A stretch of DNA of 64,000 nucleotides from a virus (lineage: Duplodnaviria > Heunggongvirae > Uroviricota > Caudoviricetes): positions 82,078 through 146,077 of the IMG/VR virus record IMGVR_UViG_3300045016_000151, one strand, 5' to 3'. The notes below the pieces were generated by a model that was not told the DNA's origin, did not search any database, and saw only the letters and a list, made by a program, of their open reading frames with translations. Made by a program: the position numbers and the translations under genes. Every line of letters begins with the position of its first letter. The first letter of the stretch is position 1. Positions 1,964-57,155 of this stretch are shown piece after piece.

Positions 1964-3867
1964 AAAGCCAGCCCCATAAAAAAGTCTGATGTTGCGTCGC
2001 CAGTTCCTTCCCACCAAGGCGCGGTATCTGGCGGTTTGTTTTCGTCAGCCTTGGCTGTTTGTTCAACTTGTTTACCTTGAATCTTCGCTTCTTCGTCAAC
2101 TTTAGCATTTGTTAGCCCAGATTTATTATTAGCATGATTACAATCACCAGTTATTTTTTTAAATAGATTGTTTACATTATTTATTGCACCGGACGCCGTT
2201 TCAATCATAGCCGTTGCAACGCTACTTAATGTATTTGCCAGATTAGCAGTTTGGCCGGATACCAAACCAGTTACTAACGCGGCGCCAAATGGACTTTGCT
2301 GTGCTAATTGTGATAATGCTTTTGTAACCGCAGAAACCAGCGGATTATTTAATATATTTAATTGTTTTAACAAAGACAATAGATATGTATCTTCGGCGAT
2401 AGCGCGTAACAATAATGCCCGCACTTCAGTAAATAACACAACAGCTCTACGTAATACTGCTTTATTTAACGGTGCAGTGACAGCGAATCCTGTAATAACT
2501 AATGAGAGCTTTAACAAGCTATCTATAGCTTCCTCATCATACTTTTGATACGCAGTGGAATTTAAATATGTTTGTATTTTTTCTATTATATAGAAATCAC
2601 TGGCCACCGCGTTAAAAGCTTCGCCCGCTTCGGTTTGTTGTGCTAATAATTGTTTTGCACCTTCTAATTTAGTAACTGTCCATGCTTTAAATAAAACTGG
2701 TTTGGCAATGGCGTTTGTTAGTGTTCCTGCCGCAGCACTATCTCCTACTTCTTTCAGATGTTTTGCAACACTAGCTTCTACTTCTTCGATTATTGACTTG
2801 GCTGGACTCAAAGAATACCATAGTACTTTAGCAGAAGTCTTTAGTGTTGACCAATTGAGCGTCCAATTTTTAATTAATTCCACCTGCTTTTTTATTACAG
2901 CGTGAGTGGCAACCAATCCCTTATTTGTATCGATCCAAGATAAAGTTTGCAAAAATGAATTTTCTTTCGGTATATCTTTACTCCATTGTGTTTTTAACGT
3001 GTTGTATTGTTGTTGTCGTTGTATTAATATTGTATTGCGGTCTTTTGCAACGCCGGGGATGGACTTCCCAAATGTTAAATCGATACCTTTTATTTCAACA
3101 CCAAGGATACTTGCGCCAGAGGTTATGATTGCTAATTGTGTTAGATGCCAAATATATGCTTCAGCCAGCATTATATGCTCAGCAACTACACCTTCTAATA
3201 TAACATCTTTAAAGGCCTGTCCGACACTTTTCTTTTTTGTAAGTATATCGTTAAAAAACTTTTGTCCTAATTTGCGTGATCGATCCCCGGTTATAATTCC
3301 AATAGCTACGTCGATATTATAAATTACTTGCCTCAGTAATGATGTATTAAAACGTGGTTTTTCTGAAGATAAACTTTTTTGTATTACGTTTAAATCCTCC
3401 AATGCTTTTTTGATAAAGGGATAAGCGTATTTTAATTGAGTGTTAACTGATTTTATATATGGTTTTGATAATCTTCGTAATATATTTAATGCGCCGTCCG
3501 TATGATATAATATTTCATTTAGTGATAATAATCGTAATGCGACCTGCCTTTTCAGGGAATCCAAGGTCATCCCAAAAGAGACTGATTCGGCTTCCGCGGA
3601 TAGATTCAAAATAGAAACTAGGCCGGCCAAAGCACTAGATGCAAATGCGCCTAATTTTTCTTGTGCGGCTTCTTGCATTTGTGTCACAGCGGTTTGTATA
3701 CCTGCGGAAGTTAATCCTCCGATAGTATCAGATAATCCCGATATAATTGAATCCAGTGCAGGTATTCCAGTGCCAGCAAATGCACCTGCAACACTAGCTT
3801 CCTTTGAGGCTTTTACTTTCTTTAATATATCCTCCGAAGTAGTCGGAGGGCACACAAATGATGCCAT
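1960..3867 (-). CDS. hypothetical virion-associated protein (635 aa, helical)
   Basis: Long ORF coupled to neighbours in tail module; function not recognised. Confidence 0.6.
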   Translation of the reverse strand: MASFVCPPTTSEDILKKVKASKEASVAGAFAGTGIPALDSIISGLSDTIGGLTSAGIQTAVTQMQEAAQEKLGAFASSALAGLVSILNLSAEAESVSFGMTLDSLKRQVALRLLSLNEILYHTDGALNILRRLSKPYIKSVNTQLKYAYPFIKKALEDLNVIQKSLSSEKPRFNTSLLRQVIYNIDVAIGIITGDRSRKLGQKFFNDILTKKKSVGQAFKDVILEGVVAEHIMLAEAYIWHLTQLAIITSGASILGVEIKGIDLTFGKSIPGVAKDRNTILIQRQQQYNTLKTQWSKDIPKENSFLQTLSWIDTNKGLVATHAVIKKQVELIKNWTLNWSTLKTSAKVLWYSLSPAKSIIEEVEASVAKHLKEVGDSAAAGTLTNAIAKPVLFKAWTVTKLEGAKQLLAQQTEAGEAFNAVASDFYIIEKIQTYLNSTAYQKYDEEAIDSLLKLSLVITGFAVTAPLNKAVLRRAVVLFTEVRALLLRAIAEDTYLLSLLKQLNILNNPLVSAVTKALSQLAQQSPFGAALVTGLVSGQTANLANTLSSVATAMIETASGAINNVNNLFKKITGDCNHANNKSGLTNAKVDEEAKIQGKQVEQTAKADENKPPDTAPWWEGTGDATSDFFMGLAL

Positions 3868-19684: not shown

Positions 19685-20885
19685 ATGAGCTTATTTAAAA
19701 AACCAACTAAAGACGATAGACGGTTAAAGATGTATGTATTCGGCGAAAGCGGTGTTGGGAAAACGCTAACTTCGCTATACTTTCCATCTCCTGCCGTAGT
19801 CGACATCGAAGGTGGCACACATTTTTATGTCGACAAATTTGAAATGACGCGATTACTTACAACGGATATAGATGAAATAAATCGAGCCGTCGATGAGTTA
19901 ATCGAAGATCCCACAGGAATAAAAACATTTGTTTTGGACAGTATGACCGCATACTGGGACTTGTTGCAAGACAAACACCTAAAACGTCTAAGGGTGAAAA
20001 AGGCAAAGCCTGATTATACATTTCAACCGATGGATTATCGGTTGCTTCAGGCTGATTTAAAATCCTTTATAAACAAGTTGTTAGCATTAGATCTTAATAT
20101 CATTGTAACAGCTAAATCAAAAAATGAATATTCTGCAGAGAGCAGTGAATTCATGAAAATAATTGGTAAAAAACCAGACGGTCCAAAGGAAGTACCGTTG
20201 ACATGAAAAGAAAATATACTGGTCCAATTCGTTTTTAAAATAAATATGTTTATCTTGAAATTACAGATAAAAACACGAATATTGGATAAAATAGCGGCCT
20301 ATGTAGAGAAATCTTATAGGAAAATCGGGAATAACGGAGAAACTCCTTAACCAGTAAGGACAATTCCGTAGCGGAAACGCTCGAACGACTGACAACCGAC
20401 TTCAAGTATGAAGATGATACAGTCTGCTCTATAGATATATATAAAACTATAGCTAACACATGGATTTATTTGACATAGTCCTTGAACTTATGTTTGGTCC
20501 AAATGATACCAGAATAGCAAAAGTTATAAAAGATCGTACTAACACATTACCAAAAGAGTTTGAATACACATATCAAGAGTTAACGAAGTACTTGGATATG
20601 AAAGAACTAGAGCGTGAACCTGTTGCACTCCGTGCGGTACAACGCTTGAATCAAGTTTCTAACCGTACCGTTGCTATAACACTAGATGGTCAAACCGTGA
20701 TGACCGGCGGTATAACAGTAGAAACTTTCACAAAACTTCGTGACATTATTCCACATTTTGAGGAACGGGAATTAAAAGATAAATTACAGGAGGACTATTA
20801 TGTTGGTTCTCTACTCGATCTGAAAGAAGACGAGGCAAAGCAGTTCCTTACTGATCTACAAGCAAAACTAGGTATTAATAATTAA
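19685..20885 (+). CDS. AAA_24/Sak4-like ATPase, exons 19685-20198 and 20464-20885
   Basis: GESGVGKT, DIEGG, VLDS; splicing restores P-Y-L-F-D-I-V (ccg t|at tta); 311 aa. Confidence 0.8.
20199..20463 (+). mobile_element. ORF-less group I intron (265 nt)
   Basis: U|...G| junctions; IGS GCGG pairs exon CCGU; P4 AACGGA/TCCGT; P7 GACTG/CAGTC. Confidence 0.85.
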
Positions 20886-21307
20886 TGAGCTATAACTTAC
20901 GCGATGTTAAGGGATCGAGTTTTGATCCTATTCCAGAAGGCCGTTATAACCTAACGGTGGATAAAGCAGAGTTAACAACTGCAAAAGATAGTGGTAATCC
21001 TATGATCAAAGCGACTTTGAAGATTCTCGATGGAGACTTTAAAGGTCGTTTAGTATGGGATAATTTTGTATTAACAGATAAATCCCTGTGGAAGTTAAAG
21101 GGAATTCTAGAAGCAATTGGTAGTAATATTGCTGAATCTGTAAATGCTACTGAACAAGATATAGCCAATGCATTACAAGGTGCAAAGGTGAATGCTTGGT
21201 TAGAAATTCGTATTGGTCCAAACGATCAAACATCAAATACAGTAAAAAACTACGCCAAAATAACCGAAGAAACGGTTGCAAGCAAAAAGAACAGTCTTTT
21301 AGCTTAA
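20885..21307 (+). CDS. DUF669-family ssDNA-binding-like protein
   Basis: FDPIPEGRY, S.NPMIK....I..G...GR.VWDN pattern, next to Sak4-like ATPase. Confidence 0.75.
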   Translation: MSYNLRDVKGSSFDPIPEGRYNLTVDKAELTTAKDSGNPMIKATLKILDGDFKGRLVWDNFVLTDKSLWKLKGILEAIGSNIAESVNATEQDIANALQGAKVNAWLEIRIGPNDQTSNTVKNYAKITEETVASKKNSLLA

Positions 21308-21317
21308 TAGCTTTATT

Positions 21318-21345
21318 GGCCTCGGTAAATATCGAGGCCTTCATG
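21318..21345 (+). terminator. possible intrinsic terminator
   Basis: GGCCTCG-8 nt-CGAGGCC hairpin, weak U tail. Confidence 0.4.
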
Positions 21346-21349
21346 TATT

Positions 21350-22072
21350 ATGGATAAATTCATACAAAGAGCTTTAACACGTTCACAAATAAATGAGATA
21401 CTACAATTTTTGTCGTATCATTTAGGGTATACGCCGCCGCAAAAGTTTACTATAATTTTTGCTAAGACTCCAGAACAATTCGCAAAGTTGCATGGAACAG
21501 AGCCGGGCCAAACGACGGTAGAGGAAATAAATTCAGCTGTACCTACGTTACCGGCAATATTTGATCATGGAACGAATACGGCGGTATTTCAAGGATTTTC
21601 TTACGTTCAAGGTCTTGCGGTACCGCATTTCATAATACCTATGGCCACAATCTTACATGAATGTATACACTTTTACCAGTATTCCGCCGGAAATTTTGGG
21701 TCGTGGCAAACAATGTACGAAGGAACCAGCGAAATATTGGCTTGCTTCTTTGCCGATGATTACCAGTTCGATTACAAGAACGAAGTCATATATAGCTTTA
21801 ACTTGGCAATGATCATCAACGATAATAATTTCTGGGAAGCAATGAACTGGATAAAACGCTACACTGTTCATAGTGATAAAAATGGATTCGTAGCACGTAG
21901 TATTTTACAGACACCCACATTTGCAAAATTTAGACCGACTAATTTGATGCGGTGGTTAGATGCTAATACGTTACATAAGATTAAAAACGAAGAGATACGA
22001 AATTTATTTACAAAGTACAATCTTTCGTATATTAAAAAACAATTACATAAGAATCGTCAACTAATTTCATGA
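21350..22072 (+). CDS. putative zinc metallopeptidase
   Basis: LHECIH (HExxH) followed by YEG..E. Confidence 0.5.
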   Translation: MDKFIQRALTRSQINEILQFLSYHLGYTPPQKFTIIFAKTPEQFAKLHGTEPGQTTVEEINSAVPTLPAIFDHGTNTAVFQGFSYVQGLAVPHFIIPMATILHECIHFYQYSAGNFGSWQTMYEGTSEILACFFADDYQFDYKNEVIYSFNLAMIINDNNFWEAMNWIKRYTVHSDKNGFVARSILQTPTFAKFRPTNLMRWLDANTLHKIKNEEIRNLFTKYNLSYIKKQLHKNRQLIS

Positions 22073-28417: not shown

Positions 28418-28651
28418 ATGAAACACAACAGAGACAAAGATGAATTAAAGGTTTTAAAACGTAAAAGAGTTTGGGATAGATTTAAGTGGTGGTATAATAA
28501 TCAAACGAATAGGTTGTTTAAAAATCATTGGTTGAAAGATAGTTGTAGTATGTGTAAATATGAACAAGCTATCAAATATCGCGAACATACTATACAACGC
28601 AGAAAAGATAAAAAAGTCATTAATGAACAATTAAATGACATGGAGACATAG
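28418..28651 (+). CDS. basic hypothetical protein; stop inside tRNA-Phe
   Basis: ATG 1 nt after tRNA-Asp. Confidence 0.5.
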   Translation: MKHNRDKDELKVLKRKRVWDRFKWWYNNQTNRLFKNHWLKDSCSMCKYEQAIKYREHTIQRRKDKKVINEQLNDMET

Positions 28652-28887: not shown

Positions 28888-28890
28888 CTA

Positions 28891-29022
28891 GCGGGTCGAT
28901 AGATGTTAGTTATCGGTTAAAGCATATATCTCAAAAATATAACACTCTAGGTTCAAGTCCTAGCGCGTATGAAAATACGTAGTAGCTAAATTAAAAACAC
29001 TGACGTCGCTTAAATTACCCGC
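28891..29022 (+). ncRNA. YrlA-type Y RNA candidate 1
   Basis: Terminal helix GCGGGT(C)GAT/ATTACCCGC with bulged C; T arm, then closed acceptor-like hairpin (GAAA loop), then degenerate D loop. Confidence 0.6.
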
Positions 29023-29027
29023 GATAT

Positions 29028-40337: not shown

Positions 40338-40567
40338 CTTATTGTTTGGATAATGATAAATTCACTGACTGCTATAAGTCCATGGTGCGCCCCACGGGAT
40401 ACGAACACCACAACTTCGACGCTCCTTTTCATATCACACACAAGGGTAATGTAAAAGCTTTCATACGTGGCACCACCGTAGACAGTGATGGTGAAGTGTG
40501 TAAGAGTAATGCCATTATTGAGCATAATTGGTTATATAATACACAAATAATAAGGATAAAAATATGA
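40334..40567 (+). CDS. hypothetical protein
   Basis: ATGA-coupled. Confidence 0.5.
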   Translation: MTYCLDNDKFTDCYKSMVRPTGYEHHNFDAPFHITHKGNVKAFIRGTTVDSDGEVCKSNAIIEHNWLYNTQIIRIKI

Positions 40568-41961
40568 ACTACGGGTTATACACAGATATGTATCAACTTG
40601 TTATGGCACAAGGATATTTCCAGATGAGCCGCCATAATGACCGAGCCACGTATGATTATTTTTATCGACGTAACCCATACGGCGGCGGTTATGCATTATT
40701 TGCCGGATTAAGTGAGTTGTTAGATATCTTAAAGAATTGGAAATTTACCGAAGAAGATACAACGTATTTATTTCATCAAGGAATTTTTCACGCAGGCTTT
40801 TTGAGTTATTTACGTGACTTTCAATTCAAAGGCGATATCTATTCTGTGCGTGAGGGCGAAGTTGTTTTTCCAAATGAACCTATACTGCGAATTGAAGGTG
40901 GTTGGCTAGAGTGTCAATTATTAGAAACTCTGTTGCTCAACATTATCAACTTCAGTACATTGATCGCAACTAAAGCAGCACGTATAAAACAAGTTGTAAA
41001 CGAACGACCTATAATTGATATGGGATTACGACGTGCACAGGGGTTGGGAGGTATTTTGGCGAGTAAAGCCGCTATTATTGGTGGTGCAACTTCAACTTCT
41101 AATGTTTATGCCGCAAAGAAATACGATCTCTTAGCGGTAGGTACAATGGCTCATGCCTGGATACTTGGTTTTGAAAACGAGTTAACTGCATTTCGTGCGT
41201 TTGCTAAAGAATATCCGCACAACACAGTGTTGCTAGTTGATACTTATGATACATTAAAAAGTGGTGTGCCGAATGCAATAATCGTAGCTAAAGAACTTGA
41301 AGCCAACGGATGTAAATTACATGGTATCCGATTAGATAGCGGCGACTTTGCGTACCTAAGCAAAAAAGCAAGAAATCTTCTTGATGAGGCCAATTTGTCT
41401 TATGTAAAAATAGTTGCATCTAATCAATTAGATGAATATGTAATTCGTAGTCTAGAAGAACAGGACGCTCCTATTGATATTTATGGTGTAGGCACAAATT
41501 TAATTATCGGTGCTGGCGCTGGAGCTCATGATGGTGTATATAAACTATCATCGATTCAAGGACAGCCGAAAATGAAATTTTCAGATAATCCTGAAAAAGC
41601 TACATTACCCGGACCAAAAGATCTGTATCGTTATTATAATAACGACGGCACTTTTTATGGCGACGGTATTACTTGCGCAGGAATGCCTCCACCGAAGAAG
41701 TTGTATGATCCTGTTTATCCAGATAGATTATCAGATGTTGGAGATCTAAAAAACGAAGCGCTTTTAATAAAGTGCGTGGAAAATGGAAAGGTTGTAATAA
41801 CTAATCCTATCGTACGTACATCAAGACTTTATGCGGAAAGTCGTCTGCAGAGCTTAGGAAAAGAATTCACTAGATTTGAAAACCCACATATCTATAAAGT
41901 AGGTGTAAGTGATATATTACTTAAGCATAAAACAGATATGATTGCCGCACTTAGAAAATAA
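40564..41961 (+). CDS. pncB: nicotinate phosphoribosyltransferase
   Basis: TDMYQL.M, GLRRAQG, GTMAH, VDTYDTLKSG, GIRLDSGD, GVGT. Confidence 0.92.
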   Translation: MNYGLYTDMYQLVMAQGYFQMSRHNDRATYDYFYRRNPYGGGYALFAGLSELLDILKNWKFTEEDTTYLFHQGIFHAGFLSYLRDFQFKGDIYSVREGEVVFPNEPILRIEGGWLECQLLETLLLNIINFSTLIATKAARIKQVVNERPIIDMGLRRAQGLGGILASKAAIIGGATSTSNVYAAKKYDLLAVGTMAHAWILGFENELTAFRAFAKEYPHNTVLLVDTYDTLKSGVPNAIIVAKELEANGCKLHGIRLDSGDFAYLSKKARNLLDEANLSYVKIVASNQLDEYVIRSLEEQDAPIDIYGVGTNLIIGAGAGAHDGVYKLSSIQGQPKMKFSDNPEKATLPGPKDLYRYYNNDGTFYGDGITCAGMPPPKKLYDPVYPDRLSDVGDLKNEALLIKCVENGKVVITNPIVRTSRLYAESRLQSLGKEFTRFENPHIYKVGVSDILLKHKTDMIAALRK

Positions 41962-41964
41962 ATT

Positions 41965-42193
41965 TTACGAGCCGAAGTATATCGTTATCAAAGAACTGTG
42001 TGTCGTAGGTCCGAATCCTACTCTCTCCACCCTGAAAGATAGTTGGTCCCTTTTGTTGAATGATTAAATTCATTTTATGGTATAGGACATGACAATATAA
42101 AAGAAGCCTCCTATAACTATCTTTCTGGTTGGGAGAGATAGCTCAGTCGGTAGAGCAACAGTATAAAGATGGTATATGACCATTTGCTCGTAA
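41965..42193 (+). ncRNA. YrlA-type Y RNA candidate 2 / circularly permuted tRNA-Phe-like gene
   Basis: tRNA 3' half (41995-42029) precedes 5' half (42132-42162); acceptor GGAGAGA/TCTCTCC; terminal helix TTACGAGC(C)GAA/TTTGCTCGTAA with bulged C. Confidence 0.75.
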
Positions 42194-42301
42194 TTTAATT
42201 TTATTATGGCTCATTCTCTAAGGTAAGCTGTAACGAGCACGCTTCAGCCATAGATAGCTATCTATGTTAAATCAAAGCACGCATATGGAATGAGTTATTT
42301 C

Positions 42302-51043: not shown

Positions 51044-51583
51044 ATGGAAAGCAAAAGATTGTTATTTCAACGTGAAATAGAAACATCTATCAACGATATT
51101 CGGGATTACAGTGATTTTATATTTGCAGTTGGTTTGGATATAAAGGAACTCACACCAGAGGTGTTGAAACTAGATATTATACCAACAATGATAATTTCAA
51201 CATCCGCGTTTAACGCATTGGCCAAAATGAATATCCCAAAAGATTTTCTGGATAAATTAAAACAGGCTTCAATGTATACTTGTCCTTGGACTGAAAATAC
51301 GTATTTCGGTACATTACCGATAGCAGTGGCAACATTTAATAAAAACAATTATAAAGACTTATTAACGGATTATCAATTAGACACCGAATTTCATCTCAGT
51401 ATGAATGGCGGCGATGTTAAGAAATTACTTATTCCAAACCTTGTAGAATTATCATTTATAGGGCATGGTTATACGTCTGCAACACTTCCCAGCGATGGTT
51501 CCCATACACTAGTACTTTGTACGATTGAATTACCTAATAAAGATTTTGCTATCTGTTTAACTTATGCATGGCACAACAAATGA
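51044..51583 (+). CDS. hypothetical protein
   Basis: AAGG SD. Confidence 0.65.
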   Translation: MESKRLLFQREIETSINDIRDYSDFIFAVGLDIKELTPEVLKLDIIPTMIISTSAFNALAKMNIPKDFLDKLKQASMYTCPWTENTYFGTLPIAVATFNKNNYKDLLTDYQLDTEFHLSMNGGDVKKLLIPNLVELSFIGHGYTSATLPSDGSHTLVLCTIELPNKDFAICLTYAWHNK

Positions 51584-52281
51584 TCAGAATATTTCAAGTT
51601 GGTGGTAGTGTTAGAGATTTAATATTACGCGTTAAGTCAAAAGATATTGATTATGCAGTAGTAGCAGTTTCTTGGGAAGAAATGAGAAATTATATTCTTG
51701 CCAAAGGCAAAATATATCTCGAGACCCCAGAATACTTCACTATCCGTGCTCATATAGATGGTTTTGGTGATGCTGATTTTGTGTTATGTCGAAAGGATGG
51801 TAACTATTCAGACGGTCGTAGACCTGATACTGTTGAGTTGGGCACATTGTATGACGATCTAGCCAGACGTGATTTCACAATGAATGCTATTGCGATCGAC
51901 ATGCAAGATCCAAAGCGTCCTTTTATTGACCCGCATGGTGGGTTGATTGACATACAAAATAATCTCATTAAATGTGTTGGTAAGCCCGAAGATCGCTTCA
52001 ATGAAGATGCTTTACGCATGCTACGCGCGTTAAGATTTGCCGTAACCAAAAAAATGCAGATCGACTTATCAGTAGAAGCATGTTTTGGTAATCGTGAGTT
52101 ATTAAACAAATTGAATAATCGTATTTCTTGGGAACGTAAAAAAGACGAATTGTTTAAAATGTTCAAAACAAGTACAACACGAACTTTTGAATTGTTTGAT
52201 CGATACCCATCAATGCGCGACGTATTACTTTCTGATGACAAACCTTTGTGGCTTGAACCAACTTTACGAGCACGCCCATGA
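51580..52281 (+). CDS. short tRNA nucleotidyltransferase (CCA/poly(A) polymerase family)
   Basis: VGGSVRD, DID, DLARRDFTMNA, EDALRMLRALRF; no HD domain. Confidence 0.88.
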   Translation: MIRIFQVGGSVRDLILRVKSKDIDYAVVAVSWEEMRNYILAKGKIYLETPEYFTIRAHIDGFGDADFVLCRKDGNYSDGRRPDTVELGTLYDDLARRDFTMNAIAIDMQDPKRPFIDPHGGLIDIQNNLIKCVGKPEDRFNEDALRMLRALRFAVTKKMQIDLSVEACFGNRELLNKLNNRISWERKKDELFKMFKTSTTRTFELFDRYPSMRDVLLSDDKPLWLEPTLRARP

Positions 52282-52844
52282 AACTAGGAATATTTGGTGG
52301 CAGTTTTGATCCGCCGCACGCTGGACATTTATGGTTGTGTAGAAGTGCTCAGGAATTATATCATTTGGATAGTATAGCTATGGTGCCTAATGCGCTTTCT
52401 CCATTAAAGGATCATAAACATACAGAAGCTCATCATATAGTCGCTATGACACGATTAACGGCGTTCGAATGCGAAAGTACTTATTGTGATACAACAGAGA
52501 TTTGCCGTGATAAGGTATCATATACTATAGACACTGTAAAATTATTTAAAGATCATTATCCAGAAGATGATTTATATTTGCTGTTAGGTGGTGATTCATT
52601 ATTAGATTTTTACCGTTGGAAGGACCCTAATGAACTTGTAGAGATTATCGGGCACGAACATATTTTAGTGGCTGAACGAAGTACTGCACCTCTGATGGCA
52701 CATAAGTTTCGGTCGCTACCTATGCCCTACATACAAGTGAGTTCAACGGATATTCGTAATCGAATAAAAAATCATTTGACAATAAAAGGATTAGTAGTTG
52801 ATTCGGTGCGTGAATATATAATCGAACGTAAGCTGTATCTATAA
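52278..52844 (+). CDS. nadD: nicotinate-nucleotide adenylyltransferase
   Basis: GGSFDPPHAGH, SPLK, SYTIDT, LLGGD, W, SST.IR. Confidence 0.92.
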   Translation: MKLGIFGGSFDPPHAGHLWLCRSAQELYHLDSIAMVPNALSPLKDHKHTEAHHIVAMTRLTAFECESTYCDTTEICRDKVSYTIDTVKLFKDHYPEDDLYLLLGGDSLLDFYRWKDPNELVEIIGHEHILVAERSTAPLMAHKFRSLPMPYIQVSSTDIRNRIKNHLTIKGLVVDSVREYIIERKLYL

Positions 52845-55709: not shown

Positions 55710-55784
55710 TGCGGGGTACGTTGGAAATGGTCCCCACGAGAGTCTCATAAGCTCTGCATGCAGGTTCAAGTCCTGTCCCCGCTA
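55710..55784 (+). tRNA. tRNA-Met/Ile2(CAT), atypical D arm
   Basis: Acceptor TGCGGGG/CCCCGCT (1:72 mismatch), CT-CAT-AA loop, good T arm; weak D stem. Confidence 0.65.
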
Positions 55785-55787
55785 CAA

Positions 55788-55895
55788 ATCGGCCGGATCG
55801 AGATTGTTATCATAGATTCGACTTCTATTTCTCCCGCCAAGAAAAAATTTGGGAGAAAGCGCAATGGACGCACTCAGTCTCACAACATTGCCGAT
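55788..55895 (+). ncRNA. YrlA-type Y RNA candidate 3 (108 nt)
   Basis: ATCGGC(C)GG/TTGCCGAT bulged-C helix; T arm, acceptor TTCTCCC-GCCA...GGGAGAA, D arm in permuted order. Confidence 0.75.
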
Positions 55896-56178
55896 CTATT
55901 TTTAAGGAAAATAAATGACTGCGTTATTCGTTATTTTCACTATAATTGTTTCAGTGCTTATTGATCTGGCTGTTCAAGCACATCGTAAACATAAATCATT
56001 AAAAACAAAGCCAGAGATTTATTTACATGATCCAACACTCACTATGTGTGATGGCGGACAATTAAAGGAACAAGATATGAAATAGGGCTATATCAATACC
56101 TCGTAAACTCACCAGTTTATAATATTAATAACCGCGACAATAAGTCGCTATATATTTTTACTAAAACTGGAGTTTACA

Positions 56179-56791: not shown

Positions 56792-57079
56792 CAGTAAAAA
56801 ATGAAACTATGCAGTTAAAACCACCAAATGGGCCGGGGATCCATAGCCTCGTTAACCTCCTTTGGGCTGGCGTGTTGCCCATTAACCTTATTGGTTAGCT
56901 ATGAACAATCATAGTACTGTTCGCCAGAACTGCATTCCAGAATGATTTAGGTTAATTGCGAAAGCCCCTGGAACAGGGGAGTCCTACGCATACTTACCCG
57001 TCGTAGGTGAGCCTGTCTAATTATGGGTTAGACCCAGGGTCGATCCAAAAGGTAAGCTCGATCGAAATTAACTATTGTC
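56790..57079 (+). ncRNA. unclassified ornate RNA candidate (about 290 nt)
   Basis: At least nine helices including crossing pairs and a CTTACC/GGTAAG kissing loop. Confidence 0.6.
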
Positions 57080-57150
57080 TGCGTGGCCGAGAACGAAATA
57101 AGCACTAGTCTCTAAAACTAGTTACACGGGGTCGTTCCCCGTCGCAGACA
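57077..57150 (+). tRNA. amber-anticodon tRNA (CTA) with non-canonical D/T loops
   Basis: GTCTGCG/CGCAGAC; CTAGT-CTCTAAA-ACTAG; T loop GTCGTTC; no GG in D loop. Confidence 0.75.
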
Positions 57151-57155
57151 CTTAT

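What the first reader, a model, noticed from the sequence alone, without database searches (positions are those of the whole stretch)
41965..42193. Circularly permuted tRNA-Phe-like RNA with a Ro60-type helix: a Y RNA that still looks like its tRNA ancestor
Seen: a complete tRNA 3' half (AAAGA-ACTGT-GTGTC-T arm-TCTCTCC-A, 41990-42029) lies upstream of the matching 5' half (GGAGAGA-TA-GCTC-AGTCGGTA-GAGC-A-ACAGT-ATAAAGA, 42132-42169). That D arm is identical to the one in tRNA-Phe at 28642. Both halves carry AAAGA, so joining them gives the loop AT-AAA-GA (Phe AAA). The 102-nt linker is structured (11-bp GAAAGATAGTT/AACTATCTTTC; TATAGG/CCTATA). The outer ends form TTACGAGC(C)GAA/TTTGCTCGTAA, a bulged-C helix with the GNCGAAG motif. 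Known: bacterial YrlA Y RNAs have T arm-acceptor-D arm order and this Ro-binding helix; permuted tRNA genes are known from algae and a crenarchaeon. Inference: a Y RNA derived from tRNA-Phe, or a true permuted tRNA matured by circularisation plus RNase P/Z.
Basis: partly seen in the sequence, partly recalled or inferred. Interest (0 to 1): 0.85.

Follow-up and report, generated by a model that had tools for sequence, protein, structure and literature searches.

The report
Phage Y RNA with extended acceptor arm
This is a tRNA-shaped "Y RNA", the small RNA partner of the ring protein Ro60, encoded by a 215-kb lake-water phage that has its own Ro60 gene; it is a known kind of RNA, unusual only in carrying a 102-base structured insert and lying 100 kb from the Ro60 gene among the phage's tRNA genes.

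Summary
Window 41965-42193 (+) folds into a tRNA body lacking an anticodon loop (T arm, 7-bp acceptor stem, D arm, 5-bp anticodon-like stem), closed by a terminal helix with a bulged C (z -4.8).

It is a YrlA-type Y RNA, not a permuted tRNA. The evidence:
- The phage encodes a full Ro60 (TROVE + Ro60-vWA), about 100 kb away on the same strand.
- The RNA has the published YrlA marks: GNCGAAG, UUAUC, and T, AS and D elements in that order.
- Two related phages carry an orthologue in the same place (NAPRTase stop | RNA | tRNA-Trp). It has compensatory changes in the terminal helix, T stem, D stem and acceptor stem, but no 102-nt insert.
- A covariance model built only from other phages' YrlAs hits the orthologues at E 6e-9 and 3e-6, and the 5' half of this RNA at E 9e-4.
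- A strict Ro-module descriptor finds six copies in the genome against 0.08 expected; a seventh was found by eye and by the model.

Unusual points are the 102-nt structured insert in the acceptor loop (3-21 nt in 25 other phage YrlAs; one 465-kb phage has about 93 nt), the distance from Ro60, and an acceptor end and D arm nearly identical to the phage's tRNA-Phe. Binding and processing are untested.

The parts
41965..41976 (+). Ro60-module 5' strand: stem 1 UUACGAGC (41965-41972), bulged C (41973), GAA (41974-41976). Contains the YrlA motif GNCGAAG (GCCGAAG, 41971-41977).
   Evidence: Sequence; MFE fold; 5 of the 8 stem-1 pairs show changes on both sides in orthologues, and bulged C + G.U is invariant; same motif in 12 canonical phage YrlAs
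41977..41989 (+). Stem 2 5' strand GUAUAUCG followed by UUAUC (the YUAY element of YrlA). The 13-mer is identical in all three orthologues.
   Evidence: pairs with UGGUAUAU at 42170-42177, 91.7% of cells paired across orthologues
41995..42004 (+). Anticodon-like stem 3' strand ACUGU (41995-41999) and 5-nt variable region GUGUC, whose last C can form the G15:C48 Levitt pair.
   Evidence: stem is 5/5 paired here, 4/5 in L269, about 2/5 in L268
42005..42021 (+). T arm GUAGG-UCCGAAU-CCUAC. The loop has C at tRNA position 55 where tRNAs and canonical YrlAs have U.
   Evidence: 3 T-stem pairs with double changes; U55C shared with L268, not with L269
42022..42029 (+). Acceptor-stem 3' strand UCUCUCC plus A at the discriminator position, followed by CC.
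   Evidence: orthologues have UCUCCGG/CCGGAGA and ACGAGCAG/CUGCUCGU, fully compensated
42030..42131 (+). 102-nt structured insert in the acceptor loop: 2x3 internal loop, CC/GG, an 11-bp helix and a branched tip. It extends the acceptor arm. Absent from both orthologues (loops of 15 and 16 nt).
   Evidence: Folds alone with z -3.55; unique in the genome; no match in phage collections; present unchanged in independent runs
42132..42162 (+). Acceptor 5' strand GGAGAGA, U8 A9, D arm GCUC-AGUCGGUA-GAGC, A26, and anticodon-like stem 5' strand ACAGU.
   Evidence: 24/25 identical to tRNA-Phe 28642; 3 D-stem pairs with double changes
42163..42193 (+). A-rich joiner AUAAAGA, stem 2 3' strand UGGUAUAU (42170-42177), spacer GACCA, UUU (pairs with GAA), and stem 1 3' strand GCUCGUAA (42186-42193).
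   Evidence: The MFE fold instead makes a local hairpin from 42169-42183; stem 2 is preferred here by homology with L268, L269 and the paralogues
28889..29024 (+). Paralogue: a second YrlA-type Y RNA between tRNA-Asn and tRNA-Tyr, with stem 1 GCGGGU/ACCCGC, bulged C, UUAUC, a T arm and a GAAA-capped acceptor hairpin.
   Evidence: R1 model 37.2 bits, E 1e-6, full length; weak Rfam tRNA hit at 28899-28971
55786..55897 (+). Paralogue: a short Y RNA module (stem 1 AUCGGC/GCCGAU, bulged C, GGA, stem 2, UUAUC) without a tRNA-like body.
   Evidence: Strict descriptor hit; R1 23.3 bits, E 1.6e-3; overlaps a 68-aa ORF of unknown reality

Best explanation
The locus is a gene for a YrlA-type Y RNA, the non-coding RNA partner of the phage's own Ro60 protein.

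The RNA has two modules.
- Docking module. The paired 5' and 3' ends form a helix with a bulged C followed by G.U and A-U pairs. A second 8-bp helix and UUAUC follow. This is the conserved site by which Y RNAs bind the outer surface of the Ro60 ring.
- tRNA mimic. This module has a T arm, a D arm, a 7-bp acceptor stem and a short anticodon-like stem. In characterised systems it is recognised by tRNA enzymes, and the Y RNA tethers Ro60 to another factor such as polynucleotide phosphorylase.

The acceptor arm here is lengthened by a 102-nt structured insert.

Shown: the sequence and fold, conservation with covariation, family resemblance, and the presence of Ro60 and of six more Y RNA modules in the genome.

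Inferred:
- The RNA is transcribed with the neighbouring NAPRTase gene and tRNA genes.
- It binds Ro60.
- The RNA-protein particle redirects or blunts a host RNA-decay or tRNA-directed activity during infection.

More speculative, about even odds: RNase P and 3' trimming cut the acceptor end, as they do in Mycobacterium smegmatis YrlA. That would remove the insert and leave a two-piece RNA ending in A-CC(A).
For: 1. Partner gene. A 552-596-aa ORF at C1:21768-23558 has TROVE (5e-38) and Ro60-vWA (1.8e-54) domains. Homologues are 550-552 aa. It lies on the same strand as the RNA.

2. Published YrlA marks (PMC4201824) are all present: GNCGAAN0-1G (GCCGAAG), YUAY (UUAUC), T, AS and D in that order, and a possible G15:C48 pair.

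3. Orthologues lie in conserved synteny in phages whose NAPRTase is 62-66% identical: L268/L267:3898-4043 and L269:3921-4064. Across the three, 89.7% of cells are paired. Thirteen pairs changed on both sides, against 4.4 in shuffles (0 of 500 reach it). Slid controls pair at 30-44%. The L267 contig also holds a Ro60 that is 73% identical.

4. Independent model. R1 was built from 12 YrlAs of unrelated phages.
- L268 orthologue: 47.4 bits, E 6e-9.
- L269 orthologue: 35.7 bits, E 3e-6.
- Window 41965-42083: 24.4 bits, E 9e-4.
- All tRNAs: 19 bits or less.

5. Rfam. YrlA (RF02553) is the top family for the L268 orthologue at 20.9 bits. Canonical phage YrlAs themselves reach only 31-37 bits.

6. 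Paralogues. A strict descriptor of the docking module finds six copies, all on the + strand, against 0.08 per shuffled genome. Four lie just upstream of Ro60.

7. Precedent. Phage Ro60 binds phage Y RNAs and acts on host PNPase (PMC12135203). M. smegmatis YrlA, which also has a 7-bp acceptor stem, is cut by RNase P and receives CA (PMC4201824).

8. The phage has a poly(A)-polymerase-head (CCA-adding type) ORF at 51568-52281.
Against: - No transcript, Ro60-binding or processing data exist for this RNA.
- The gene lies about 100 kb from Ro60. The published criterion for calling a YrlA was within 4 kb.
- Rfam YrlA does not hit the window even at E 10, and my own model aligns only the 5' half because of the insert.
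- The T loop has C instead of the universally conserved U55.
- The L268 orthologue has GCCGGUCGG instead of GNCGAAG.
- The 102-nt insert is found only in this phage among the three orthologues, so it could be a neutral or even damaging insertion.
- No promoter or terminator was recognised.
Confidence: 0.85

Rival explanations
1. A true circularly permuted tRNA gene. The transcript's ends would be joined (circularised or ligated), then RNase P and RNase Z would open the acceptor end. The product would be a working tRNA-Phe with anticodon AAA.
For: The 3' half lies upstream of the 5' half. All four tRNA stems are present. The acceptor stem, A73 and D arm closely match the phage tRNA-Phe. AAAGA occurs on both sides of the anticodon-like stem. 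A CCA-adding-type enzyme is encoded.
Against: - Joining would need precise removal of about 25 nt from the 5' end and about 24 nt from the 3' end, and these form a helix kept by compensatory changes.
- The orthologues have no matching loop halves, and L268 has almost no anticodon-like stem.
- There is no RtcB in the phage.
- A34 in a Phe anticodon is not a natural bacterial decoding solution (general knowledge), and tRNA-Phe(GAA) is already present.
- The T loop lacks U55.
- The flanking module is the YrlA docking module found seven times in this genome.
Confidence: 0.02
2. A decaying copy. It was once a YrlA, was disabled by a 102-nt insertion into its acceptor loop, and is now drifting without function.
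For: The insert is absent from both orthologues. It is five times longer than any acceptor loop in 25 resolved phage YrlAs. The T loop carries a U55C change. The phage has six other Y RNA modules that could cover the function.
Against: - Every helix is intact and the fold is strongly favoured (z -4.79).
- The insert sits in the one place where length varies naturally, and it forms a stable extension of the acceptor arm (z -3.55).
- A 465-kb phage has a comparable extension of about 93 nt in its YrlA.
- U55C is shared with the L268 lineage, so it is old and tolerated.
- The sequence is unchanged in runs dated 2019 and 2025.
Confidence: 0.07
3. A tRNA-like processing or stability element that works without Ro60. 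It could act as a 'punctuation' signal letting RNase P separate the NAPRTase mRNA from the downstream tRNAs, or as a partner RNA of some other protein.
For: The RNA starts 3 nt after the NAPRTase stop codon and sits before tRNA-Trp in three phage lineages. Permuted tRNA-like RNAs without the Ro motif exist in other phages (L029, L015). The gene is far from Ro60.
Against: The conserved and covarying part is precisely the Ro60 docking module: bulged C, G.U, stem 2 and UUAUC. A mere RNase P signal would not need it. The same module recurs beside Ro60.
Confidence: 0.05

Closest known systems
YrlA Y RNAs of bacteria and phages (Rfam RF02553; Chen et al. 2014, PMC4201824), especially Mycobacterium smegmatis YrlA
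   Same: GNCGAAG motif near the 5' end, YUAY element, T arm - acceptor-like stem - D arm order, possible G15:C48 pair, and a Ro60 orthologue in the same genome on the same strand. Like M. smegmatis YrlA, it has a full 7-bp acceptor stem, the feature that makes that RNA an RNase P substrate.
   Different: - About 100 kb from Ro60 instead of within 4 kb.
- 102-nt structured insert in the acceptor loop instead of 3-21 nt.
- Both strands of the Ro helix are recognisable.
- U55 is replaced by C.
- A clean 5-bp anticodon-like stem.
- No hit to RF02553, although canonical phage YrlAs also fall far below its threshold.
Thermus phage phiLo Ro60 with Yrl1 and Yrl2 (PMC12135203)
   Same: A phage-encoded Ro60 together with phage-encoded Y RNAs that have a 5'-3' stem and the CGAA motif. 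For that system, binding and an effect on host PNPase were shown experimentally.
   Different: The phiLo RNAs lie directly upstream of Ro60. Here the RNA is one of seven modules, three of them scattered through a 35-tRNA island, and nothing has been tested experimentally.
Deinococcus radiodurans Yrn1/Yrn2 and metazoan Y RNAs (Rfam RF00019)
   Same: A terminal helix from both ends with a bulged C followed by G.U and A-U. In human Y1 this reads GGUC-C-GA over UUGACC (my recollection); here it reads GAGC-C-GAA over UUUGCUC. Yrn2 is co-transcribed with a tRNA.
   Different: No sequence-level family match. The effector module here is a near-complete tRNA body rather than a pyrimidine-rich loop.
YrlA of a 465-kb phage contig, L307:11234-11469 (-), found here
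   Same: Canonical docking module and T arm. The acceptor 3' strand is followed by A-CCA and a linker of about 93 nt that folds back as a long extension of the acceptor arm.
   Different: Unrelated insert sequence, a class-II-like D arm, and CCA fully encoded (here A-CC-C).
Circularly permuted tRNA genes of the red alga Cyanidioschyzon merolae (recalled from memory; not checked in a paper here)
   Same: The 3' half of a tRNA is encoded upstream of the 5' half.
   Different: Those are matured by circularisation at a bulge-helix-bulge splice motif and yield real tRNAs with anticodon loops. Here there is no such motif or loop, and the ends form a conserved protein-docking helix.

Membership tests
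YrlA-type Y RNA (Chen et al. 2014; Rfam RF02553) | GNCGAAN0-1G motif near the 5' end | tested here: met
   GCCGAAG at 41971-41977; same motif in 12 canonical phage YrlAs. The L268 orthologue deviates (GCCGGUCGG).
YrlA-type Y RNA (Chen et al. 2014; Rfam RF02553) | T-like and D-like stem-loops with an acceptor-like stem-loop between them, in the order T-AS-D | tested here: met
   covariation in the T and D stems, 3 pairs each; acceptor stems compensated. Deviations: T loop UCCGAAU, and the AS loop (A73 plus the 102-nt insert) is 103 nt.
YrlA-type Y RNA (Chen et al. 2014; Rfam RF02553) | YUAY element before the variable region, and a possible 15:48 Levitt pair | tested here: met
   UUAUC at 41985-41989; G15 in the D loop AGUCGGUA and C at the end of GUGUC; the same in both orthologues.
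YrlA-type Y RNA (Chen et al. 2014; Rfam RF02553) | Encoded within about 4 kb of a Ro60 orthologue, on the same strand | tested here: not met
   Ro60 is present and on the same strand, but it lies at C1:21768-23558 while the RNA is at C1:124042-124270, about 100 kb away. This was a search criterion of the authors rather than a property of the RNA.
YrlA-type Y RNA (Chen et al. 2014; Rfam RF02553) | Score at or above the Rfam gathering threshold (69 bits) | tested here: not met
   No hit in the window at E up to 10; L268 orthologue 20.9 bits; L269 none. Control: textbook-looking phage YrlAs reach only 31-37 bits, so the threshold does not discriminate for phage sequences.
YrlA-type Y RNA (Chen et al. 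2014; Rfam RF02553) | Recognised by a covariance model of phage YrlAs built without this clade | tested here: met
   R1 scores: L268 47.4 bits (E 6e-9), L269 35.7 bits (E 3e-6), window 41965-42083 24.4 bits (E 9e-4 over 87 kb; 5' half only); tRNAs 19 bits or less.
YrlA-type Y RNA (Chen et al. 2014; Rfam RF02553) | Physical association with Ro60/Rsr | not testable with these tools
   Needs a pull-down or gel shift with the phage Ro60.
Circularly permuted tRNA gene | After joining the ends, a 7-nt anticodon loop on a 5-bp stem, conserved in relatives | tested here: not met
   A loop would need about 25 nt removed from the 5' end and about 24 nt from the 3' end. The orthologues lack matching halves, and L268 lacks the stem.
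Circularly permuted tRNA gene | Splice or ligation machinery, and a processing motif at the transcript ends | tested here: not met
   No RtcB in the phage. The ends form a covarying bulged-C helix, not a bulge-helix-bulge motif. Host enzymes could not be examined.
Canonical tRNA (Rfam RF00005 / ARAGORN) | Contiguous cloverleaf detected by tRNA finders | tested here: not met
   No ARAGORN or Rfam tRNA call at 41965-42193.

The most novel reading that the evidence does not exclude
RNase P and 3' trimming cut the RNA at its acceptor end. This releases the 99-102-nt insert as a separate RNA. What remains is a two-piece, CCA-tailed look-alike of the phage's own tRNA-Phe acceptor/D half, clamped by Ro60. 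The particle then serves as a decoy or tether for a tRNA-directed host factor (a nuclease, repair enzyme or synthetase) and so protects the phage's 35-tRNA translation set. The dispersal of Y RNA genes among the tRNA genes would then reflect shared transcription and processing.
Probability: 0.12. Interest if true: 0.7.

Novelty: new member of a known kind. Interest (0 to 1): 0.35.

Why it matters
Ro60-Y RNA particles are known in animals, bacteria and a few phages, but what phages use them for is still open. This case adds three points of detail.
- Y RNA genes can lie far from Ro60, hidden among tRNA genes. Published searches, which were limited to 4 kb around Ro60, and Rfam thresholds would both miss them.
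- The acceptor arm of the tRNA mimic tolerates extensions of about 100 nt, at least twice independently in very large phages.
- A subset of phage YrlAs encodes N73-CCA directly after the acceptor strand. This hints that the RNase P and CCA processing seen in M. smegmatis is widespread.

With a Ro60 gene, seven candidate partner RNAs and a CCA-adding-type enzyme in one genome, this phage clade would make a compact system for testing how Y RNA variety is used. None of this changes the basic picture of what a Y RNA is.

Tried and rejected
- Rfam at the gathering threshold and at E up to 10 on the window: no Y_RNA or YrlA hit at the locus. Whole-genome YrlA hits were all adjacent tRNA pairs.
- ARAGORN: no call at the locus.
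- megablast and blastn against cultured-phage records: no relatives, only tRNA 5'-half similarity.
- Loose DNA patterns in viral contigs returned almost only chance hits. The single metagenome scan, using the conserved 13-mer plus the T loop, returned only chance matches, mostly one coding gene.
- A search for the insert in viral contigs found nothing, and the insert has no second copy in the genome.
- NAPRTase homologues at or below 59% identity turned out to be bacterial genes with no RNA downstream. One phage relative had glycoside hydrolase there instead (L266). Two relatives gave no DNA.
- Expression: no RNA holder was listed among public runs.
- Laying four DNA runs gave no sequence variants to use for covariation.
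- The whole records behind L266, L267 and L269 could not be searched.
- The sigma-70 promoter and terminator scan was at or below shuffle level.
I treat it as an unverified lead.
- The first, loose docking-module descriptor did not beat shuffles (18 hits against 14.5) and was replaced by the strict one.
- My automatic measurement of acceptor-linker length mis-assigned all nine values above 50 nt. Only the 25 values of 3-21 nt and the hand-checked L307 case are used.
- No Thg1 in this phage, although its relatives have one.

Full report
**What is there.** The window is bases 82078-146077 of a 215,016-bp virus record rated complete. It carries 35 tRNA genes, all on the + strand. The flagged stretch begins 3 nt after the stop codon of a nicotinate phosphoribosyltransferase (NAPRTase) gene (40564-41961). 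It ends about 108 nt before tRNA-Trp.

An unconstrained fold of 41960-42200 reproduces the following (-69.5 kcal/mol, z -4.79, 0 of 200 shuffles as good):
- a terminal helix UUACGAGC/GCUCGUAA with a bulged C, followed by G.U, A-U, A-U;
- a 5-bp anticodon-like stem;
- a T arm;
- a 7-bp acceptor stem;
- a D arm.

The 102-nt linker between the two acceptor strands folds by itself into a long irregular hairpin that extends the acceptor arm (z -3.55). ARAGORN and Rfam report nothing at the locus.

**The partner protein is in the phage.** A search of the whole record with Pfam TROVE finds one gene at C1:21768-23558, on the + strand. It has TROVE (5e-38) and Ro60-vWA (1.8e-54) domains. Its homologues are 550-552 aa and cover 92% of the ORF. 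The true start is therefore probably the ATG at L001:1409, which is preceded by a ribosome-binding site. The RNA lies at C1:124042-124270, about 100 kb downstream. There is no RtcB ligase.

**Orthologues and covariation.** The NAPRTase protein led to related large phages.
- L008 = L268, and L267. L267 is a 215,066-bp contig that also carries a Ro60 73% identical to this one.
- L269, from a 130-kb contig.

Both lineages have an RNA in the same place: NAPRTase stop, then the RNA, then tRNA-Trp. The 13-mer GUAUAUCGUUAUC is identical in all three.

The helices differ by compensated changes:

| Helix | This phage | L268 | L269 |
|---|---|---|---|
| Stem 1 | ACGAGC/GCUCGU | same | GUGGGU/ACCCAC |
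| T stem | GUAGG/CCUAC | GUAAAG/CUUUAC | AUGGG/CCCAU |
| D stem | GCUC/GAGC | same | GACU/AGUC |
| Acceptor stem | UCUCUCC/GGAGAGA | UCUCCGG/CCGGAGA | ACGAGCAG/CUGCUCGU |

On the three-sequence alignment, 89.7% of cells pair. Thirteen of 33 pairs have changes on both sides, against 4.4 in shuffles (0 of 500 reach it). Sliding the partner columns drops pairing to 30-44%. The bulged C and the following G.U are invariant.

Neither orthologue has the 102-nt insert; their acceptor loops are 15 and 16 nt. The anticodon-like stem is 5/5 paired here, 4/5 in L269 and only about 2/5 in L268.

**Family assignment.** Chen et al. 2014 (PMC4201824) define YrlA RNAs by four things:
- the motif GNCGAAN0-1G near the 5' end;
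- a YUAY element;
- nearly invariant T-like and D-like stem-loops with an acceptor-like stem-loop between them;
- a 15:48 pair.

They found these RNAs within 4 kb of Ro60 in 254 bacteria and 22 phages. This RNA has GCCGAAG, UUAUC, T-AS-D in that order, and G15 with C48.

A pattern search in viral contigs recovered textbook phage YrlAs. They share the extended signature GAGC-C-GAAG ... GGUUAUC ... T arm ... D arm ... UUGCUC, and their terminal helix covaries.

Results with the two models:
- Rfam's YrlA model is the best family for the L268 orthologue, but at only 20.9 bits.
- As a control, the textbook phage YrlAs reach only 31-37 bits against a threshold of 69. Failing the threshold says little.
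- I therefore built a model, R1, from 12 YrlAs of unrelated phages.
- R1 scores the L268 orthologue at 47.4 bits (E 6e-9), L269 at 35.7 bits (E 3e-6) and the window RNA at 24.4 bits (E 9e-4 over 87 kb).
- For the window RNA, R1 aligns only the 5' half, because the insert breaks the alignment.
- No tRNA exceeds 19 bits.

**A family of paralogues.** The docking module can be written as a strict descriptor:
- stem 1 of 6 bp;
- bulged C, then G;
- 2-6 nt;
- stem 2 of 7 bp, directly followed by UUAYC;
- later, the stem 2 partner;
- 4-9 nt ending in UU;
- the stem 1 partner.

The descriptor finds six copies in the genome, all on the + strand. One hundred dinucleotide shuffles of the genome give a mean of 0.08 and a maximum of 1. 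Four copies lie just upstream of Ro60: C1:20516-20590, 20602-20712, 21292-21397 and 21663-21863. The last ends GCCUCAUUUUUUU shortly before the Ro60 start. The other two are this RNA and window 55788-55895. A seventh, window 28889-29024, was found by eye and by R1 (37.2 bits).

**Why it is not a permuted tRNA.**
- The 'anticodon loop halves' are not conserved.
- An A-rich stretch after the D arm is common to YrlAs.
- The flanks that would have to be removed form the most strongly covarying helix.
- The phage already has tRNA-Phe(GAA).

The likeness to that tRNA-Phe is real for the acceptor stem, A73 and D arm (24/25 nt). It does not extend to the T arm, and the orthologues do not share it. It may reflect descent, gene conversion or mimicry; I cannot tell which.

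**The insert and possible processing.**
- In 25 phage YrlAs where my script gave a plausible acceptor hairpin, the loop is 3-21 nt, most often 6.
- One YrlA from a 465-kb phage contig (L307:11234-11469, - strand) has the acceptor 3' strand, then A-CCA, then about 93 nt that fold back as a long arm.
- A cyanobacterial MAG shows linkers of about 55 nt. This fits the remark in Chen et al. about longer acceptor stems in cyanobacteria.
- Several phage YrlAs with linkers of 6-15 nt encode N-CCA directly after a 7-bp acceptor strand: L016a, three in L072, L268 and L029. Here the sequence is A-CC-C.
- M. smegmatis YrlA, the one characterised YrlA with a 7-bp acceptor stem, is cut by RNase P and receives CA in vivo.
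- The phage encodes a 237-aa nucleotidyltransferase with the poly(A)-polymerase head domain typical of CCA-adding enzymes.

Together these make excision of the insert plausible, but it is only an inference. The extension is base-paired right up to a 2x3 loop at the acceptor end, which may hinder RNase P.

**Mechanism.** By homology, the terminal module docks on Ro60 and the tRNA-like module engages a tRNA-recognising or RNA-decay factor. In Deinococcus and Salmonella the Y RNA tethers Ro60 to PNPase (PMC4201824). In Thermus phage phiLo, the phage Ro60 and its Y RNAs bind host PNPase and damp its activity (PMC12135203). The likely role here is similar control of host RNA turnover during infection, but nothing in the sequence tells which factor is addressed.

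**Context.** The same sequence occurs in lake-water metagenomes from 2018 to 2025, with no variants in the four runs laid. The NAPRTase is closest to Bacteroidota and Balneolaceae genes at 55-58% identity, a weak hint at the host. No RNA run was listed.

**Verdict.** The reading as a YrlA-type Y RNA is supported, and the permuted-tRNA reading is not. The kind is known. The long acceptor-arm insert, the position far from Ro60 inside a tRNA island, and the close copy of the tRNA-Phe acceptor/D half are points of detail worth a note, not a new class.

Noticed in passing
window 28889-29024 (+): A second YrlA-type Y RNA lies between tRNA-Asn and tRNA-Tyr. It has stem 1 GCGGGU/ACCCGC with a bulged C, UUAUC, T arm CUAGG-UUCAAGU-CCUAG, a GAAA-capped acceptor hairpin and a degenerate D region. 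R1 scores it 37.2 bits (E 1e-6); Rfam calls part of it a weak tRNA (31 bits).
   Followed up: partly
window 55786-55897 (+): A short Y RNA docking module without a tRNA body (strict descriptor hit; R1 23.3 bits). It overlaps a 68-aa ORF (55758-55964) that may not be real.
   Followed up: partly
L001:24-1385 (= C1:20513-21874), upstream of Ro60: Four docking-module RNAs in a row. One is a minimal 75-nt form with a pyrimidine-rich loop. There is also a tRNA-like element at L001:729-799 whose T arm is 16/17 identical to the one in the finding. The annotated 596-aa Ro60 ORF probably starts 44 codons too early; the true ATG is at L001:1409, just after the last RNA's U-run.
   Followed up: partly
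L268:4050-4186 and L267:4171-4307: The related phages carry a second YrlA directly after the orthologue (R1 40-42 bits). Its terminal helix UGAGGC-C-G / UUUGCCUCA matches that of this phage's Ro60-adjacent RNA at C1:21663-21863. This suggests that Y RNA genes moved between the Ro60 locus and the tRNA island.
   Followed up: partly
L016, L072, L268, L029, L307 (phage YrlAs): A subset of phage YrlAs encodes discriminator + CCA directly after a 7-bp acceptor 3' strand, followed by a linker of 4-93 nt. Others close the acceptor stem with a tetraloop. These look like two classes, processed and unprocessed.
   Followed up: partly
L029 (- strand, near reverse-complement position 1373) and L015 (- strand, near 3057): Permuted tRNA-like RNAs (T arm - acceptor - D arm inside a long terminal helix) with no GNCGAAG or bulged-C motif. 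L029 has the same acceptor stem as the finding (UCUCUCC/GGAGAGA) followed by G-CCA.
   Followed up: no
window 51568-52281 and 52278-52844 (+): A 237-aa poly(A)-polymerase-head nucleotidyltransferase (CCA-adding type). It is followed, with an overlapping stop and start, by a cytidylyltransferase-like (NMNAT-type) gene inside the tRNA island.
   Followed up: partly
window 57077-57151 (+): A tRNA with anticodon CUA (ARAGORN labels it 'Pyl'; Rfam tRNA 43.6 bits). This is a candidate amber-suppressor tRNA, which could mean stop-codon reassignment late in infection.
   Followed up: no
window 42195-42301 (+): The spacer between the Y RNA and tRNA-Trp can close into a 12-bp helix (AUGGCUCAUUCU/GGAAUGAGUUAU) around two small hairpins, but the fold is not significant (z -1.45).
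   Followed up: partly
L267:5730-6401, and the P0004 contig: Related phages encode a Thg1-family (tRNA 5'-end repair) protein near the NAPRTase-Y RNA locus. This phage has none.
   Followed up: partly
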